From Escherichia coli (GTDB taxonomy: Bacteria; Pseudomonadota; Gammaproteobacteria; Enterobacterales; Enterobacteriaceae), in the NCBI RefSeq assembly GCF_030384885.1, contig NZ_CP128613.1: a stretch of DNA of 64,000 nucleotides; one strand, given 5' to 3'. Below are positions 10,368-19,268 of this stretch, piece by piece; the first letter of the stretch is position 1, and each line of letters starts with the position of its first letter. Under the pieces are notes generated by a model. It did not search any database and had not been told where the DNA came from. It worked only from the letters and a program-made list of their open reading frames with translations. The position numbers were made by a program, and so were the translations under genes.

Positions 10368-10502
10368 ATAAAAAATGTCATACTCAAAATCATTCAAACT
10401 GTATCAAGATGGCAAGAGAATTAATCCCAATGAGCTTACTGTAGTAAGTGATTCGGGTGAAAGAACGCAGCCAACGCAGAGACAGATTGAAGGATGAAGA
10501 GT

Positions 10503-11987
10503 ATGGGTTCCACCTCGTCATTATATGCAGCCATTGATCTCGGTTCGAATAGTTTTCATATGCTGGTTGTGCGCGAGGTGGCTGGAAGCATCCAGACGCT
10601 GACGCGAATTAAACGCAAAGTGCGTCTGGCTGCTGGCCTGAACAGCGAAAATGCCCTGTCTAATGAAGCAATGGAGCGCGGTTGGCAATGTTTGCGCCTG
10701 TTTGCTGAACGTCTGCAAGATATCCCTTCCTCGCAAATTCGCGTTGTCGCCACGGCGACATTACGCCTTGCCGTCAATGCCGGTGATTTTATTGCCAAAG
10801 CGCAGGAAATCCTCGGTTGTCCGGTACAAGTGATCAGCGGTGAAGAAGAAGCTCGCCTGATTTATCAGGGTGTTGCTCACACCACTGGCGGTGCCGATCA
10901 GCGCCTGGTGGTGGATATCGGCGGCGCCAGTACTGAACTGGTAACCGGCACGGGCGCACAAACCACCTCGTTGTTCAGCCTGTCGATGGGCTGCGTCACC
11001 TGGCTGGAACGCTATTTTGCCGATCGTAATCTGGGGCAGGAAAATTTTGATGCCGCAGAAAAAGCGGCACGCGAAGTGTTACGTCCGGTTGCCGATGAAT
11101 TGCGGTATCACGGCTGGAAAGTGTGCGTTGGTGCTTCCGGCACCGTGCAGGCCTTACAAGAAATCATGATGGCACAGGGGATGGATGAACGGATTACCCT
11201 GGAAAAGTTGCAGCAACTGAAACAACGCGCCATTCATTGTGGTCGACTGGAGGAACTGGAGATCGACGGACTGACGCTGGAACGTGCGTTAGTGTTCCCG
11301 AGTGGTCTGGCGATCCTGATAGCCATTTTTACCGAACTGAATATTCAGTGTATGACCCTGGCTGGTGGTGCACTGCGTGAAGGGCTGGTCTACGGCATGT
11401 TGCATCTGGTCGTCGAGCAGGATATTCGCAGCCGTACGCTGCGTAATATTCAACGCCGCTTTATGATCGATATTGATCAGGCTCAGCGAGTAGCCAAAGT
11501 TGCGGCTAATTTCTTCGATCAGGTGGAAAACGAATGGCATCTTGAAGCAATAAGCCGTGATTTGCTCATCAGCGCCTGTCAGCTTCATGAAATCGGTCTG
11601 AGCGTTGATTTCAAACAAGCGCCGCAACATGCTGCTTATCTGGTGCGTAATCTGGATCTTCCCGGTTTTACGCCTGCACAGAAAAAATTACTGGCGACGC
11701 TACTACTCAACCAGACGAACCCAATAGATCTCTCCTCGTTGCATCAACAAAATGCCGTACCGCCACGCGTCGCAGAACAACTCTGCCGTTTACTACGCCT
11801 GGCCATCATTTTTGCCAGCCGTCGCCGTGACGATCTCGTGCCAGAGATGACATTAAAGGCCAACCATGAACTGTTGACCTTGACGCTTCCGCAAGGTTGG
11901 CTAACCCAACATCCGCTGGGTAAAGAGATTATTGATCAGGAAAGCCAGTGGCAAAGCTATGTTCACTGGCCGTTGGAAGTACATTAA
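10503..11987 (+). CDS. gppA: guanosine pentaphosphate phosphohydrolase / exopolyphosphatase family
   Basis: ORF 10494..11987; recognised N-terminus [31 protein letters not shown] 9 nt before the second ATG. Confidence 0.9.
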
Positions 11988-11997
11988 AGAATAATAT

Positions 11998-12030
11998 GCC
12001 GGATGCGATGCTCGCGCATCTTACCCGGCC
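11998..12030. repeat. REP-like extragenic palindrome between convergent gppA and rep
   Basis: GCCGGATGCG...GCGCATC..CCGGCC imperfect palindrome resembling the REP consensus, in the 47-bp gap between two stop codons. Confidence 0.45.
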
Positions 12031-12034
12031 TTGA

Positions 12035-14056
12035 TTATTTCCCTCGTTTTGCTGCCATCATCGCCTTCAGATTTGCCAGATGGTTTTGGCCTTTCTGCAT
12101 TCGTTCTTCGGCGCTGACAACTTTGCGCTCCTGTTCCCATACCAAATCATCCTGCGGCAGCTCCAGCAGGAAGCGACTCGGCTCCGGGCGCACAAGTTCG
12201 CCGTACTGACGGCGTTCTTTACACAGCGTAAAGGTCAATTCCTTCTGGGCGCGGGTGATGCCAACATAGGCCAGCCGACGCTCCTCATCAATATTGTCTT
12301 CATCGATGCTGCTCTGGTGAGGCAAAAATCCTTCTTCCATACCGACCATGTAGACATAAGGAAACTCCAGCCCTTTTGACGCGTGCAGAGTCATCAGTTG
12401 TACCTGATCCAGCTCTTCCTCGCTCTCGCCGCGCTCCATCATGTCTCGCAGAGTAAAGCGCGTCACCACCTGAGTGAGCGTCATCGGCTCATCCAGTTCA
12501 CTGCCTTCCAGCATCTCCGTCATCCAGCTAAACAGTTGGTTGACGTTCTTCATGCGCATTTCGGCAGCTTTCGGGCTGGGCGATGTTTCATACAGCCAGG
12601 ATTCATAATCCATGCCGTGGATCAGATCGCGTACTGCGGCAATCGGCTCCCGCTCCGCCAGGCGCTGGATTTCCGCTAGCCAGTGAGTGAAGCGGGTCAA
12701 TGCTTCATAACCACGTCCACTAAGCGTCTGACTCAGGCCCATATCAAAACTGGCGGTAAACATACTTTTATTGCGCGTCATCGCCCACTCGCCCAGCTTT
12801 TTCAGCGTCGCCGGGCCAATCTCTCGTTTCGGCGTGTTAACGATACGCAGAAATGCGCTGTCATCGTCCGGGTTAGTCAGCACGCGCAGATAAGCCAGCA
12901 AATCTTTGATTTCTGGGCGAGAGAAAAACGACGTGCCACCGGAAATTTTGTACGGGATGCGGTTTTGCATCAGGAATTTTTCAAACACCCGCGACTGATG
13001 GTTACCGCGATAAAGAATGGCGTAATCTTTGTACTGCGTTTTATTGACGAAGTGATGGGCGATCAATTCACCGGTGACGCGCTCGGCCTCATGTTCCTCG
13101 TTATTCGCGCTTAAAACTTTTAGCTCTGTGCCGTAACCCAGTTCAGAAAAAAGACGCTTTTCAAAGACGTGCGGGTTATTGGCGATAAGGATGTTCGCCG
13201 CTTTCAGAATACGCCCGGAAGAGCGATAGTTCTGTTCGAGTTTAATCACCTTCAACGCAGGGAAATCCTGGCTCAACAGCACCAGGTTTTGCGGACGGGC
13301 ACCGCGCCAGGAGTAGATCGACTGGTCATCATCGCCTACCACGGTAAAACGTGCGCGGCTGCCCACCAGCAGTTTCACCAGCTCATACTGACTGGTGTTG
13401 GTGTCCTGATATTCATCCACCAGCAGGTAGCGAATTTTGTTCTGCCAGCGCTCGCGGACTTCTTCATTGCGTTGCAGCAGTAACGTCGGCAATAAAATCA
13501 GATCATCGAAGTCGAGAACGTTACAGGCTTTCAGGTGTGAATCATACAGCCCATAACAATGGGCAAAAATGCGATCCCGCTCGCCCTTTGCTTCTGCCGC
13601 CGCCTGCGCCGGTGTTTTGAGATCGTTCTTCCAGTTAGAGATGGTCGAAATCAGCTGTTGCAGAAGAACTTTGTCATCTTCAATCAGCCCCTCGGTCAGT
13701 TCTTTGAGCAACGCCAGTTGATCGGTATCGTCAAACAGTGAAAAGTTCGCTTTCATCCCAAGCGCCGCATACTCCCGTTTGATGATATCCAGCCCTAATG
13801 TATGGAAGGTGGAGATCATCAGCCCGCGCGCCTCTTTACGCCCCAGCGTCTGCCCGACACGCTCTTTCATCTCGCGCGCCGCCTTATTGGTAAAGGTCAC
13901 CGCCGCGATATGTCGCGCCTGATAACCGCAACCGCGGATCAGATGGGCGATTTTATTGGTGATAACACGAGTTTTACCGGAACCCGCGCCCGCCAGCACC
14001 AGGCAGGGGCCGGTAACGAATTCGACAGCTTGTTGTTGGCCGGGGTTTAGACGCAT
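12035..14056 (-). CDS. rep: ATP-dependent DNA helicase Rep
   Basis: ORF 12035..14107; recognised start [31 protein letters not shown] (673 aa); UvrD-family motifs. Confidence 0.9.
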
Positions 14057-14272
14057 AGGTGTATTGCTCAATCTTCGAACGGGGGGAGGATTGTAGCAGA
14101 ATCGCATTTGAATGTGACCGAGTGAAAACCGCTAACCGGATGGCTGCGGATGTTTAAATCAGAGAGGGAAGGCCGAAACCGGAGTTCATCATGAATCCAT
14201 TAGACTTAGAAAATATCGGGTCGTAACGTTGTGTTATTACTTTTTCAGAGTTTACTAAGGAGAGGTTTACTC

Positions 14273-14722
14273 GTGGCGATTAATTTCAGCCCCAAGGTTG
14301 GTGAAATACTGGAATGCAACTTTGGTAACTATCCCGTTAGCCAGAATGGACAGTTCAGCACGACGTATTACGATGGCCGCATTCCACCTGAGATGATAAA
14401 AAATAGGTTGGTTGTCGTGCTCAACGGAAAAATTAATGGCAACGCATGTATCGTCGTTCCATTATCAACCACTCGCGACCATGACAAGTTAAATCGTGGA
14501 ATGCATGTTGAAATAGCCAGTAATGTTATCAATGACCTGCAATTCTTTGATCCGCAGATACGTTGGGCTAAAGCCGACCTGGTACAACAAGTCAGTCGAA
14601 ACCGATTAAACAGAGCAAGGACTTATCGGGGGTATCTTAATCAATGTTTGCCACATGAGTTGGTTGCAGACATACAGAGGGCAGTCATCAAGTCAATCAA
14701 TGCCATATCGCTCATAAATTGA
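14273..14722 (+). CDS. yifN: MazF/PemK-like toxin-fold protein YifN
   Basis: ORF 14231..14722; AAGGAGA RBS 9 nt before GTG at 14273; PemK-like segments (KVGEIL..., RLVVVL, CIVVPLSTT); position between rep and ppiC. Confidence 0.65.
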   Translation: MAINFSPKVGEILECNFGNYPVSQNGQFSTTYYDGRIPPEMIKNRLVVVLNGKINGNACIVVPLSTTRDHDKLNRGMHVEIASNVINDLQFFDPQIRWAKADLVQQVSRNRLNRARTYRGYLNQCLPHELVADIQRAVIKSINAISLIN

Positions 14723-16825: not shown

Positions 16826-17716
16826 TTGGATTTACGCGATCTGAAAACCTTCCTGCATCTGGCGGAAAGCCGCCATTTTGGCCGCAGCGCGCGGGCGATG
16901 CACGTTAGTCCATCCACGCTTTCCCGACAGATTCAGCGCCTGGAAGAAGATCTCGGTCAGCAGCTGTTTGTGCGCGATAACCGTACGGTGACGCTGACCG
17001 AAGCGGGCGAAGAACTGCGCGTTTTCGCCCAGCAAACACTGTTGCAGTATCAGCAATTGCGCCACACCATCGACCAGCAAGGACCGTCGCTCTCTGGCGA
17101 ATTACATATCTTCTGCTCGGTGACCGCTGCCTACAGCCATCTGCCGCCGATTCTTGACAGATTCCGCGCGGAACACCCGTCAGTGGAGATCAAACTCACT
17201 ACCGGTGATGCGGCGGATGCGATGGAAAAAGTGGTGACGGGGGAAGCGGATCTGGCGATTGCCGGGAAGCCGGAGACGCTGCCCGGTGCAGTGGCGTTTT
17301 CGATGCTGGAGAATCTGGCAGTGGTGCTGATCGCGCCTGCCCTACCGTGCCCGGTGCGTAATCAGGTTTCGGTAGAGAAGCCGGACTGGTCTACAGTGCC
17401 GTTTATCATGGCAGATCAGGGGCCGGTGCGCCGCCGCATTGAGCTGTGGTTCCGACGCAATAAAATCAGTAACCCGATGATTTACGCCACGGTTGGCGGA
17501 CATGAAGCGATGGTTTCGATGGTGGCGCTCGGCTGCGGCGTGGCATTGTTGCCGGAAGTGGTGCTGGAAAACAGCCCGGAACCGGTGCGTAACCGCGTGA
17601 TGATTCTGGAGCGTAGCGATGAGAAAACGCCGTTTGAGCTGGGCGTTTGTGCACAAAAAAAGCGGCTGCATGAGCCGCTGATTGAGGCTTTCTGGAAGAT
17701 TTTACCGAATTACTAA
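16826..17716 (+). CDS. ilvY: LysR-family transcriptional activator of ilvC
   Basis: Protein reads (M)[44 protein letters not shown]...; the codon encoding the first residue is TTG at 16826, no in-frame ATG nearby. Confidence 0.85.
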
Positions 17717-17726
17717 GGACAATTTC

Positions 17727-18116
17727 ATGACAACAAGAAAGTGGATATTATTATTGGTTTTAGCGGTAAGTTGCATTGCGCAAGCCAAACCGAAAGGTAT
17801 CACCGTTCAGGATGTGAAGCATCTGGCGTTGAAAGAGTGTTTAACGTCCCATTATCGTGAGCGTACGCCCGCTGATGCCTTTTCGGCTCCTGCTCATGAC
17901 GTTTCATTTCTGCTTGAAAGGTATGCTTTAGATAATGCTGGAAAGTGGAATGCTTTTCAGAAATTTGTCGCCAAAGAGACGAAGGGATTTGGCACCCTCA
18001 CCCTTGCGCTACATCCCGATAGCGCAAAGGATGCGAATAACATAATGGAGCGGTGTATGAGCTTTTATGAGTCGGAAAAGCTTGATAATTACATTCGTAA
18101 TAAGATTATGAAGTAA
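17727..18116 (+). CDS. hypothetical small exported protein (predicted signal peptide; possible lipobox)
   Basis: ATG with AAGGA RBS 8 nt upstream, starting 10 nt after the ilvY stop; N-terminus MTTRKWILLLVLAVSCIAQA|KPKG has n/h/c signal regions and an AxA site; two Cys in the mature part. No family recognised. Confidence 0.6.
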   Translation: MTTRKWILLLVLAVSCIAQAKPKGITVQDVKHLALKECLTSHYRERTPADAFSAPAHDVSFLLERYALDNAGKWNAFQKFVAKETKGFGTLTLALHPDSAKDANNIMERCMSFYESEKLDNYIRNKIMK

Positions 18117-18134
18117 ATCGTGAGAAATAAATAC

Positions 18135-18725
18135 ATGGCAAAAAATAATAATCACTTACCATCGAATATCGATAATTTCTCTATCCATAAGAAATACACC
18201 CACATATTTGACATTGCCTTTGTAAAGTTTGGTGCCAGACTGGCAGATGTACAAATGACACTATTCAAAAACACATCGCCCTCAGTTTATACACTTCAAT
18301 GTATAAGTGACGATGAATTGTTCTTTATTGATATTTACGAAGATGAGCAAGCCGTGTTAGCAGAACACCGAATTATTGATAATGAAGAAAATATTGTTTT
18401 CATCCCACATTGTTTTACAAAAATGTTAATGACTGCTTGTCAGGAAGCTAAAAAACAACCTGCTTTATACACGGAAGATATACTAATGAGCAAAAGAGTG
18501 CGTCGCCAGCGACTATCACAGACTATGCCTGCTCTGGTGAGCCTACGTGACATCCATATCGATTTTAGGACCAGTTACGGACATGGCGAAGCCTCATACG
18601 AGATCAATTTTAGTCCATACGCTATCGAAAATGGTGACTGGATGAACGCTAAAAGGTGCAGAAATTTTTCTGTTATGTTCGATGAGAATATGAATTTTAT
18701 AGAAGTTCAATGGTATAGGGATTAA
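18135..18725 (+). CDS. hypothetical cytoplasmic protein (196 aa), AT-rich gene
   Basis: ORF 18120..18725; likely start is the ATG at 18135 (MAKNNNHLPSN...); no TM or signal peptide; visibly AT-rich codon usage; no recognisable motif. Confidence 0.55.
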   Translation: MAKNNNHLPSNIDNFSIHKKYTHIFDIAFVKFGARLADVQMTLFKNTSPSVYTLQCISDDELFFIDIYEDEQAVLAEHRIIDNEENIVFIPHCFTKMLMTACQEAKKQPALYTEDILMSKRVRRQRLSQTMPALVSLRDIHIDFRTSYGHGEASYEINFSPYAIENGDWMNAKRCRNFSVMFDENMNFIEVQWYRD

Positions 18726-18731
18726 AAAAAC

Positions 18732-19205
18732 TTAAACCGAAACACGATTTGGAAACATAACAACCTCCACTTCAATTTCTGTTAAATTACTTAAATTGAT
18801 TATCAGTTTTAACTCTGAATGTTCGTTAATTGCCATCAAAATATCATTGCTAACAGAAATAAAGCTTATTGGGTTAGTCTGGGTAAAAAAGAATCCCCAG
18901 ACAAAATTATTATCAGCATCTATATATACCAACGATCCCTCGTTTCCCATCGTTCCATCACCGCCGTAGATTTTCCCGCCTTTATACTCAGTAAATGTCC
19001 AGTAGTCGACGGGAACCCAGCAATCAGAATCGTATTTTTCAATACTGGAGAAGGATGTATCACACAAAGGAGTACACCAGGCTTTCTTCTCTTTCGTGTA
19101 ATTATCGAAAGACTCCCGCCAGTTTAAAAGGGTGACAGTCCCATTCGCAAAGGTCAGGCTATCGATTCCAGGTAACTCTTTTTTCTCTTCCCAGCGTTTA
19201 AACAT
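18732..19205 (-). CDS. hypothetical cytoplasmic protein (157 aa)
   Basis: ATG at 19205 with AAGGA RBS 9 nt upstream; stop lies 6 bp from the stop of the preceding plus-strand ORF (tail-to-tail); AT-rich; no recognisable motif. Confidence 0.55.
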   Translation of the reverse strand: MFKRWEEKKELPGIDSLTFANGTVTLLNWRESFDNYTKEKKAWCTPLCDTSFSSIEKYDSDCWVPVDYWTFTEYKGGKIYGGDGTMGNEGSLVYIDADNNFVWGFFFTQTNPISFISVSNDILMAINEHSELKLIINLSNLTEIEVEVVMFPNRVSV

Positions 19206-19240
19206 GACAATAAATCCTTTTATTTCATCACGTAGTATAA

Positions 19241-19268
19241 CTCCCTAATGAAGACGTTCATTAGGGAG
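19241..19268 (-). terminator. perfect 12-bp inverted repeat just downstream of the ilvA stop
   Basis: CTCCCTAATGAA-GACG-TTCATTAGGGAG; weak U-tract, so possibly a leaky terminator or processing site. Confidence 0.45.

What the first reader, a model, noticed from the sequence alone, without database searches (positions are those of the whole stretch)
11998..12030. REP-like palindromic element in the gppA-rep convergent gap
An imperfect GC-rich palindrome resembling REP sequences fills most of the 47-bp space between two stop codons. It may act as an mRNA stabiliser or terminator surrogate for both genes.
Basis: partly seen in the sequence, partly recalled or inferred. Interest (0 to 1): 0.15.

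Follow-up and report, generated by a model that had tools for sequence, protein, structure and literature searches.

The report
Known REP hairpin between gppA and rep
The GC-rich palindrome between the converging gppA and rep genes is a real but ordinary REP element, the counterpart of the annotated REP286 of E. coli K-12, and it most likely forms the hairpin that marks and protects the 3' end of the gppA (and probably rep) mRNA.

Summary
Window 11998-12030 is a 70% G+C imperfect palindrome inside the 47-nt gap between the gppA stop (11985-11987) and the rep stop (12035-12037). It folds stably on both strands.

A profile built from 38 unrelated K-12 REP units finds it as the only significant hit in the 64-kb window (E=1.2e-4). 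A 44-nt query matches a median of 24 places per E. coli genome. The K-12 site at the same position is curated as REP286. In one strain the REP-specific IS1397 sits in its loop.

It is a single unit, oriented on the rep-sense strand. Its GTAG tetranucleotide has degenerated to CAAG, so it is probably no longer mobilisable.

K-12 Term-seq places the main gpp mRNA 3' end 6 nt past the hairpin. An in-vitro Rho-binding peak overlaps it on the rep-sense strand. Function on the rep side remains inferred.

REP-type hairpins, or true terminators, occupy this gap in many Enterobacteriaceae, but about ten species have almost no gap.

Verdict: already known, low interest.

The parts
10494..11987 (+). gppA CDS (guanosine pentaphosphate phosphatase), stop TAA at 11985-11987
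   Evidence: NF008260 978 bits against a cut-off of 624; annotated gppA in the identical record NZ_CP027579.1
12035..14056 (-). rep CDS (DNA helicase Rep), stop TAA = complement of 12035-12037
   Evidence: NF008172 1531.7 bits against a cut-off of 1168. The RefSeq CDS is 2022 nt. The mechanical ORF 12035-14107 starts 17 codons too early.
11988..12034 (.). 47-nt convergent intergenic gap
11997..12033 (-). Single REP / palindromic unit. In REP orientation it reads CAAGGCCGGGTAAGATGCGCGAGCATCGCATCCGGCA. It is the counterpart of K-12 REP286.
   Evidence: nhmmer with a profile of 22 distinct K-12 units: 18.6 bits, E=1.2e-4, minus strand 12031-11997, model positions 3-37 of 37. 33/37 identical to REP286 and 33/37 to the ycjW-ompG REP.
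12030..12033 (-). Position of the family's GTAG tetranucleotide, here CAAG (CTTG on the + strand)
   Evidence: 39 of 41 K-12 units found with a GTAG-blind profile carry GTAG. GTAG is required by TnpA_REP (PMC3333891; PMC8266576).
11998..12004 (.). 5' arm of the hairpin foot (GCCGGAT). It pairs with 12023-12029: 7 pairs in the rep-sense RNA, 5 pairs plus an interrupted extension in the gppA-sense RNA.
   Evidence: The five foot pairs are 100% paired, with compensatory changes at 3 of 5 pairs, across 28 sequences from this gap.
12023..12029 (.). 3' arm of the hairpin foot (ACCCGGC)
12007..12011 (.). 5' arm of the upper stem (GATGC). 12005-12006 opposite 12021-12022 is the family's two-base mismatch bubble.
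   Evidence: the bubble is required for TnpA_REP binding
12012..12015 (.). Loop (TCGC). The corresponding K-12-type loop TGAC is the IS1397 insertion point in strain MEI003.
12016..12020 (.). 3' arm of the upper stem (GCATC)
12035..12035 (+). Predicted steady-state 3' end of gppA mRNA (...CCGGCCUUGAU-3'), by homology to the K-12 Term-seq 3' end at NC_000913.3 3962698 (-)
   Evidence: Adams et al. 2021, PMC7815308, supplementary file 1, sheet LB 0.4: primary gpp 3' end, 25,474 reads. The sequence from the foot onward is identical in the window. This is inferred, not measured, for this strain.

Best explanation
The element is a single REP (palindromic unit), the allele in this divergent E. coli lineage of the curated K-12 element REP286. 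It descends from the REP population that the REP-associated transposase TnpA_REP spreads. Its GTAG recognition tetranucleotide has decayed to CAAG, so it is most likely a fixed, immobile relic (inferred).

It is transcribed at the end of both converging genes, 10 nt after the gppA stop and 5 nt after the rep stop. It folds into a stable hairpin in either RNA. The hairpin sets the steady-state 3' end of the gppA transcript a few nucleotides past its foot. That end arises either by weak termination there or, more likely, by blocking 3'-exonucleases that trim transcripts terminated further downstream. Either way, stable gppA RNA does not extend antisense into rep.

The 3'-end position is shown for the K-12 counterpart. 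The same role for rep mRNA is inferred from symmetry, and Rho loading just after the hairpin from an in-vitro rut peak.
For: Identity:
- The REP profile hit is the only significant one in 64 kb (E=1.2e-4).
- A 44-nt query hits a median of 24 places per genome in 5425 of 5426 E. coli genomes.
- The paralogue in the ycjW-ompG gap is 33/37 identical and has a canonical GTAG.
- The K-12 site 3962701-3962736 is listed as REP286, 'Convergent, rep/gpp'.
- IS1397, which inserts specifically into these units, sits in the loop of this element in strain MEI003 with a GAC duplication.
- The best Rfam match is the REP-derived naRNA4.

Structure:
- Fold energies are -16.8 and -20.0 kcal/mol, z -3.3 and -4.1.
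- The foot pairs are kept by compensatory changes across genera.

Function:
- The primary gpp 3' end lies at 3962698 (-), 6 nt after the foot.
- Rho-dependent transcripts end just after such stem-loops, which protect against PNPase and RNase II, with rut sites just downstream (PMC6061677).
- A rut peak at 3962712-3962817 on the rep-sense strand overlaps REP286.
- REPs between convergent genes correlate with higher expression of both genes, and about 30% of convergent gaps hold one.
- In Kosakonia and Franconibacter the same gap holds a classical, partly bidirectional, intrinsic terminator instead.
Against: - No 3' end for rep mRNA is listed at this site in the Term-seq tables.
- No bicyclomycin-sensitive transcript overlaps the rut peak in the table.
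- All expression data are from K-12, not from this strain, whose loop and bubble differ at 4 of 37 positions.
- About ten Enterobacteriaceae species have a gap under 20 nt with no hairpin, so a hairpin here is not indispensable.
- Some E. coli strains carry stem-weakening substitutions (L088, L089).
- Genome-wide, terminal REPs were not associated with longer mRNA half-lives (section heading; Fig. 4G-H legend).
Confidence: 0.78

Rival explanations
1. The element works as a weak bidirectional intrinsic (Rho-independent) terminator. RNA polymerase itself stops a few nucleotides after the hairpin in both directions, and the mapped 3' end is a true termination point rather than a trimmed end.
For: Both tails are U-rich: CUUGAUUAUUUCCCU scores -2.77 and AUAUUAUUCUUUAAU scores -2.78 with the TransTermHP tail formula. 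Thirty-eight other K-12 REP units average -2.03, and only 5% (REP strand) and 0% (other strand) reach -2.5. The K-12 3' end lies 6 nt after the stem. True terminators occupy the same gap in other genera. The REP study says 78 REPs lie within predicted bidirectional terminators.
Against: The simple terminator scan finds nothing at the element. The U runs are interrupted, with at most 3 consecutive U. 11% of random 15-mers score as well. The stem has an internal bubble. The -2.5 cut-off is recalled from memory of Kingsford et al. 2007. I could not confirm whether REP286 is among the 78, because the supplement is truncated.
Confidence: 0.3
2. Its main effect is translational. Because the hairpin starts within 15 nt of both stop codons, terminating ribosomes stall, which triggers tmRNA rescue and lowers Rep and/or GppA output.
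For: The hairpin starts 10 nt after the gppA stop and 5 nt after the rep stop. REPs fewer than 16 nt from a stop codon down-regulate translation (Liang, Rudd & Deutscher 2015, as cited in PMC12306157).
Against: The primary paper could not be read, so I do not know whether rep or gpp was among its cases. In several Citrobacter and Kluyvera species the rep stop codon lies inside the REP itself, so close spacing is tolerated. There are no data for this locus.
Confidence: 0.15
3. It is a neutral relic of a selfish element with no function for the host. The 3' end maps there only because any stable hairpin stops exonucleases.
For: GTAG is lost. Stem-weakening variants segregate in E. coli. The hairpin is absent in about ten species. 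An IS insertion that splits it is tolerated in MEI003.
Against: A hairpin of some kind (REP-type, other GC-rich, or terminator) is present in 53 of the 71 species loci that contain both gene ends. The REP-type units with a clear profile match (at least about 9 bits) all lie in the same orientation. The foot shows compensatory changes. The tails are more U-rich than those of typical REPs.
Confidence: 0.25
4. It is a chance GC-rich palindrome unrelated to REPs.
For: None beyond its short length. Rfam has no family that reaches its threshold here.
Against: all point to REP identity.
Confidence: 0.01

Closest known systems
E. coli K-12 MG1655 REP286 (NC_000913.3 3962701-3962736, between rep and gpp)
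   Same: Same position, same flanking genes, same orientation, same CAAG in place of GTAG, and identical foot and upper stem. It is 33/37 identical. The window copy is its allele.
   Different: Four substitutions: two in the loop (TCGC against TGAC on the gppA-sense strand) and two in the bubble (TTAC against TTTT). The gap is 47 nt against 46 nt. The exact window allele is rare: 3 of 5426 genomes at 100% over 44 nt.
Canonical E. coli REP / palindromic units, classes y, z1, z2 (Bachellier 1999; Ton-Hoang 2012, PMC3333891)
   Same: 37-nt imperfect GC-rich palindrome, extragenic, with the two-base mismatch bubble. It has a y-type foot (GCCGG) and z1-like length. It is 28/37 identical to z1 and 26/37 to y consensus sequences derived here from K-12 copies.
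   Different: GTAG is replaced by CAAG. The upper stem is GATGC/GCATC rather than GGCG/CGCC or GACGC/GCGTC. It is a single unit, not part of a BIME pair.
REP in the ycjW-ompG gap (L090 1501-1536)
   Same: 33/37 identical, with the same unusual GATGC upper stem, which shows that a REP sub-family exists.
   Different: That copy keeps GTAG and is followed by a second, inverted unit (BIME-like).
REP325 in yjdM-yjdN (bioRxiv 10.64898/2026.03.23.713779) and its RNA naRNA4 (Rfam RF02564)
   Same: It is the experimental model of a REP acting as both a partly Rho-dependent terminator and an mRNA stabiliser in a 3' UTR. It is also the best Rfam hit (26.6 bits, E 0.012).
   Different: REP325 is a multi-unit cluster between tandem genes. 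The match here is far below the gathering score of 59.5.
Bidirectional intrinsic terminators at the same gap in Franconibacter and Kosakonia
   Same: A GC-rich hairpin filling the gppA-rep gap, for example AAAAGCCTCCCGCAGGAGGCTTTTT in L079.
   Different: Those have perfect stems and uninterrupted A and T runs, and no REP profile match.

Membership tests
REP / palindromic unit of E. coli (group 2 REP) | 30-40 nt imperfect, GC-rich palindrome able to form a stem-loop | tested here: met
   37 nt; 70% G+C in the 33-nt core; -16.8 and -20.0 kcal/mol, z -3.25 and -4.07. Definition from PMC3333891.
REP / palindromic unit of E. coli (group 2 REP) | Extragenic, typically at gene 3' ends (tandem or convergent pairs) | tested here: met
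   Lies wholly within the 47-nt convergent gap. About 60% of REPs lie between convergent genes.
REP / palindromic unit of E. coli (group 2 REP) | Many dispersed copies in the genome | tested here: met
   Median 24 places per genome at E<=10 in a 28-Gb search; 24 in the source genome. A 33/37 paralogue lies at ycjW-ompG.
REP / palindromic unit of E. coli (group 2 REP) | Significant match to a family profile built from independent members | tested here: met
   nhmmer 18.6 bits, E=1.2e-4; sole hit below E=1 in 64 kb. A GTAG-blind profile recovers K-12 REP286 at 22.1 bits.
REP / palindromic unit of E. coli (group 2 REP) | Conserved GTAG tetranucleotide 5' of the foot (needed for TnpA_REP binding and cleavage) | tested here: not met
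   CAAG here and in all Escherichia loci examined except L009 and E. albertii, which also lack GTAG. 39 of 41 K-12 units have GTAG. Curated REPs such as REP24 and REP298 also lack it. The element is therefore filed as a degenerate member by descent, not as an active transposase substrate.
REP / palindromic unit of E. coli (group 2 REP) | Two-base mismatch (bubble) in the stem | tested here: met
   AA opposite GC between foot and upper stem in the rep-sense strand fold. Requirement.
REP / palindromic unit of E. coli (group 2 REP) | Target of REP-specific insertion sequences (IS1397) | tested here: met
   IS1397 sits in the loop of the K-12-type allele in strain MEI003, flanked by a GAC duplication. 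Specificity.
REP / palindromic unit of E. coli (group 2 REP) | Bound and cleaved by TnpA_REP as single-stranded DNA | not testable with these tools
   Predicted negative, because no GTAG mutation is tolerated by the E. coli enzyme.
BIME (bacterial interspersed mosaic element) | [quoted passage not shown] | tested here: not met
   Only one unit fits in the 47-nt gap, and the profile hits once. It is one of the minority of single REPs (84 of 584 in K-12).
Intrinsic (Rho-independent) terminator | GC-rich hairpin immediately followed by a 7-8 nt U tract | tested here: inconclusive
   The consensus scan is negative at the element. Tail scores are -2.77 and -2.78, more U-rich than typical REP tails but reached by 11% of random 15-mers.
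Intrinsic (Rho-independent) terminator | Precise RNA 3' end a few nt after the stem in vivo | tested here: inconclusive
   The K-12 gpp 3' end lies 6 nt after the foot. This is equally expected for exonuclease trimming. No such end is listed for rep.
Rfam RF02564 naRNA4 | Score at or above the gathering threshold (59.5 bits) | tested here: not met
   26.6 bits on the + strand and 18.6 bits on the - strand. The resemblance is only to the REP hairpin contained in that model.

The most novel reading that the evidence does not exclude
The REP at the gppA/rep junction may be one ancient insertion, kept at the same position and in the same orientation across Enterobacteriaceae genera. In that reading its sequence was repeatedly homogenised to each genus's own REP type. 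In Escherichia it then lost GTAG and gained U-richer tails, becoming a domesticated bidirectional 3'-end hairpin or terminator. In some Citrobacter and Kluyvera species the GTAG even supplies the rep stop codon.
Probability: 0.3. Interest if true: 0.3.

Novelty: already known. Interest (0 to 1): 0.08.

Why it matters
It matters little beyond correct annotation. The element is a textbook feature, and its K-12 counterpart already has a name (REP286). It is still a clean worked example of three points. A single REP between convergent genes coincides with a mapped mRNA 3' end. A REP can lose its transposase tag yet persist. REP hairpins and classical terminators replace one another at one gene junction across genera.

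Tried and rejected
- A fixed-spacing REP pattern with the wrong spacer length gave 0 hits. This was my error, not evidence.
- A fuzzy-regex scan timed out.
- Exact REP seed words found no other REP in the window; all other hits lie in coding sequence.
- The repeat finder missed the hairpin because its arms are two 5-nt blocks.
- The held copy of NC_000913.3 shows no repeat_region features. The yaaX-yaaA gap, which I recall as holding REP1 and where the profile does find a canonical unit, is also unannotated. Absence of annotation there therefore means nothing.
- Liang et al. 2015 and Liang & Deutscher 2016 are not held. The stop-codon rule is cited second-hand.
- The Dar & Sorek supplement is not held.
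- The REP preprint's supplement is truncated, so membership of REP286 in its list of bidirectional terminators is unknown.
- I first thought the low identity to most E. coli at gppA-rep (about 92.8%) marked a local recombination tract. Sliding identity to K-12 is 92-97% over most of the window, so the whole strain is divergent. atpA is simply conserved.
- Pfam and PADLOC found nothing for the three extra ORFs between ilvY and ilvA.

Full report
**Observation.** The window holds gppA at 10494-11987 (+) and rep at 12035-14056 (-). Both reach the NCBIfam equivalog cut-offs, and both are annotated that way in the 100% identical record E. coli 2013C-4282. The stops are 47 nt apart (11988-12034).

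Positions 11998-12030 read GCCGGATGCGATGCTCGCGCATCTTACCCGGCC, 70% G+C. As RNA the 33-mer folds at -16.8 kcal/mol on the gppA-sense strand (z -3.25) and at -20.0 kcal/mol on the rep-sense strand (z -4.07; 0 of 200 shuffles as good). The hairpin has four parts:
- a foot, 11998-12004 paired with 12023-12029;
- a two-base bubble;
- an upper stem, 12007-12011 paired with 12016-12020;
- a 4-nt loop, 12012-15.

**What it is.** I collected 38 palindromic units (22 distinct sequences) from about 146 kb of E. coli K-12 unrelated to this locus. They reproduce the three classical classes y, z1 and z2. A profile HMM built from them finds window 12031-11997, minus strand, at 18.6 bits and E=1.2e-4. This is the only hit below E=1 in the 64 kb.

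Five further results agree:
- A 44-nt query matches a median of 24 places per genome in 5425 of 5426 complete E. coli genomes.
- One paralogue, in the ycjW-ompG gap, is 33/37 identical, shares the unusual GATGC/GCATC upper stem, and carries the canonical GTAG.
- The K-12 counterpart, NC_000913.3 3962701-3962736, is listed as REP286, 'Convergent, rep/gpp', in the supplement of a 2026 REP study. It is 33/37 identical to the window copy.
- In strain MEI003 an IS1397 lies in the loop of this element, flanked by a GAC duplication. IS1397 is known to insert specifically into these units.
- The best Rfam hit is naRNA4, a REP-derived RNA, although it is far below threshold.

**Anatomy and departure from the family.** The REP strand is the rep-sense strand. 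The element is a single unit, not a BIME pair. Only 84 of 584 K-12 REPs are single. The bubble that TnpA_REP needs is present.

The GTAG tetranucleotide is replaced by CAAG. A GTAG-blind profile finds 41 units in the K-12 sample: 39 have GTAG, one has GTTG, and the one with CAAG is REP286 itself. The E. coli enzyme tolerates no GTAG mutation, so this copy is predicted to be immobile. That is inference. Curated REPs such as REP24 and REP298 also lack GTAG. I therefore file the element as a degenerate member by descent, not as an active substrate.

**How it most likely works.**
- *Shown for K-12.* Term-seq (Adams et al. 2021) lists a primary gpp 3' end at 3962698 (-), with 25,474 reads in LB at OD 0.4. 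That position is 6 nt past the hairpin foot and coincides with the last base of the rep CDS. It corresponds to window 12035.
- *Framework from the literature.* Dar & Sorek found that Rho-dependent transcripts end just after stable stem-loops, which block PNPase and RNase II, and that rut sites lie just downstream. The REP study finds REPs in about 30% of convergent gaps, associated with higher expression of both genes.
- *On the rep-sense strand.* An in-vitro Rho-utilisation peak (3962712-3962817) overlaps REP286, but no bicyclomycin-sensitive transcript is recorded with it. No rep 3' end is listed by Term-seq.
- *Termination or trimming.* Both tails after the hairpin are U-richer than those of typical REPs (-2.77 and -2.78 against a mean of -2.03). 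The simple terminator scan is nonetheless negative at the element. Termination versus trimming is therefore unresolved.
- *Distance to the stop codons.* The hairpin starts 10 nt after the gppA stop and 5 nt after the rep stop. That is inside the 15-nt range reported to cause ribosome stalling (cited second-hand). This possibility is untested here.

**Comparison across strains and species.** Essentially every E. coli genome has the element (5417 of 5426 with at least 80% of a 76-nt query). Differences between alleles fall mainly in the loop and the bubble. Two stem-weakening variants were seen: a foot C-to-T change in L088 and two upper-stem changes in L089.

I then examined 71 species-representative Enterobacteriaceae loci that contain both gene ends:

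| Content of the gppA-rep gap | Loci |
|---|---|
| REP-type palindrome with CTAC | 16 |
| REP-type palindrome with a degenerate tetranucleotide | about 16 |
| Other GC-rich hairpin | 15 |
| Hairpin plus T-run (classical terminator) | 6 |
| Gap under 20 nt | 10 |
| Extra DNA between the genes | 5 |
| No 5-bp GC-rich inverted repeat | 3 |

The REP-type units with a clear profile match lie in the same orientation as here. The CTAC group includes Citrobacter, Enterobacter and Lelliottia. The terminator group includes Kosakonia and Franconibacter. In nine further loci rep was not reached; most show an inserted gene.

The five foot pairs are 100% paired in 28 sequences, with compensatory changes at three pairs. 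I chose those sequences because they looked like REPs, and the changes track genus-specific REP types. They therefore argue for the hairpin as a family trait rather than for local selection.

**Novelty.** The element is already known (REP286). The species-specific character of REPs at shared positions is, from my memory of Gilson et al. 1987, also an old observation. The interest is low.

**Caveats.**
- All expression evidence is from K-12.
- The rep-side function is inferred.
- The TransTermHP cut-off is recalled from memory.
- The classification is a crude regular-expression scheme with a few visible misassignments, for example L075.

Noticed in passing
window 17700-19250: About 1.5 kb between ilvY and ilvA has no K-12 counterpart. 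RefSeq annotates three hypothetical proteins there (WP_000213253.1, WP_001107527.1, WP_000476904.1). None has a Pfam or PADLOC hit.
   Followed up: partly
whole window: The window is 100% identical to E. coli 2013C-4282 but only 92-97% identical to K-12 in most 500-nt bins. Only about 15 of 5426 genomes are at least 99% identical at gppA-rep. It comes from a divergent E. coli lineage, possibly a cryptic clade.
   Followed up: partly
window 14231-14722 (+): An intact PemK/MazF-family toxin ORF lies next to rep. The K-12 counterpart yifN is annotated as a pseudogene.
   Followed up: no
L012, L016, L026, L027, L028 (gap just downstream of gppA): In several Citrobacter and Kluyvera species the rep stop codon TAG is the last three bases of the REP's GTAG (or ATAG). 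The Rep reading frame therefore runs right up to the hairpin foot.
   Followed up: partly
L005 4288-5769 (E. coli MEI003): IS1397 (IS3 family) is inserted in the loop of the rep/gppA REP with a 3-bp GAC duplication. Seven of 5424 genomes lack a contiguous match at this site.
   Followed up: partly
L039, L043, L047, L060, L068, L076, L081, L085: In the Klebsiella loci (L039, L043, L047, L060, L068) and in Pseudenterobacter (L076), Kluyvera georgiana (L081) and Phytobacter massiliensis (L085), an extra gene starting MREELDFKSLRFF... follows gppA (MRDELDIKSLRFF... in L081). I suspect a LysR-type regulator but did not test it. The convergent gppA-rep junction is not universal.
   Followed up: no
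L082 3989-4090 (Enterobacter sp. kpr-6): Here the gap holds a long, about 100-nt, very stable palindrome (-75 kcal/mol) of a different repeat type (CCCTCTCCC...GGGAGAGGG), not a REP.
   Followed up: no
L087 21887-21917 (K-12 lacA-lacY gap): This is the only other unit in the K-12 sample with an altered tetranucleotide (GTTG instead of GTAG).
   Followed up: no
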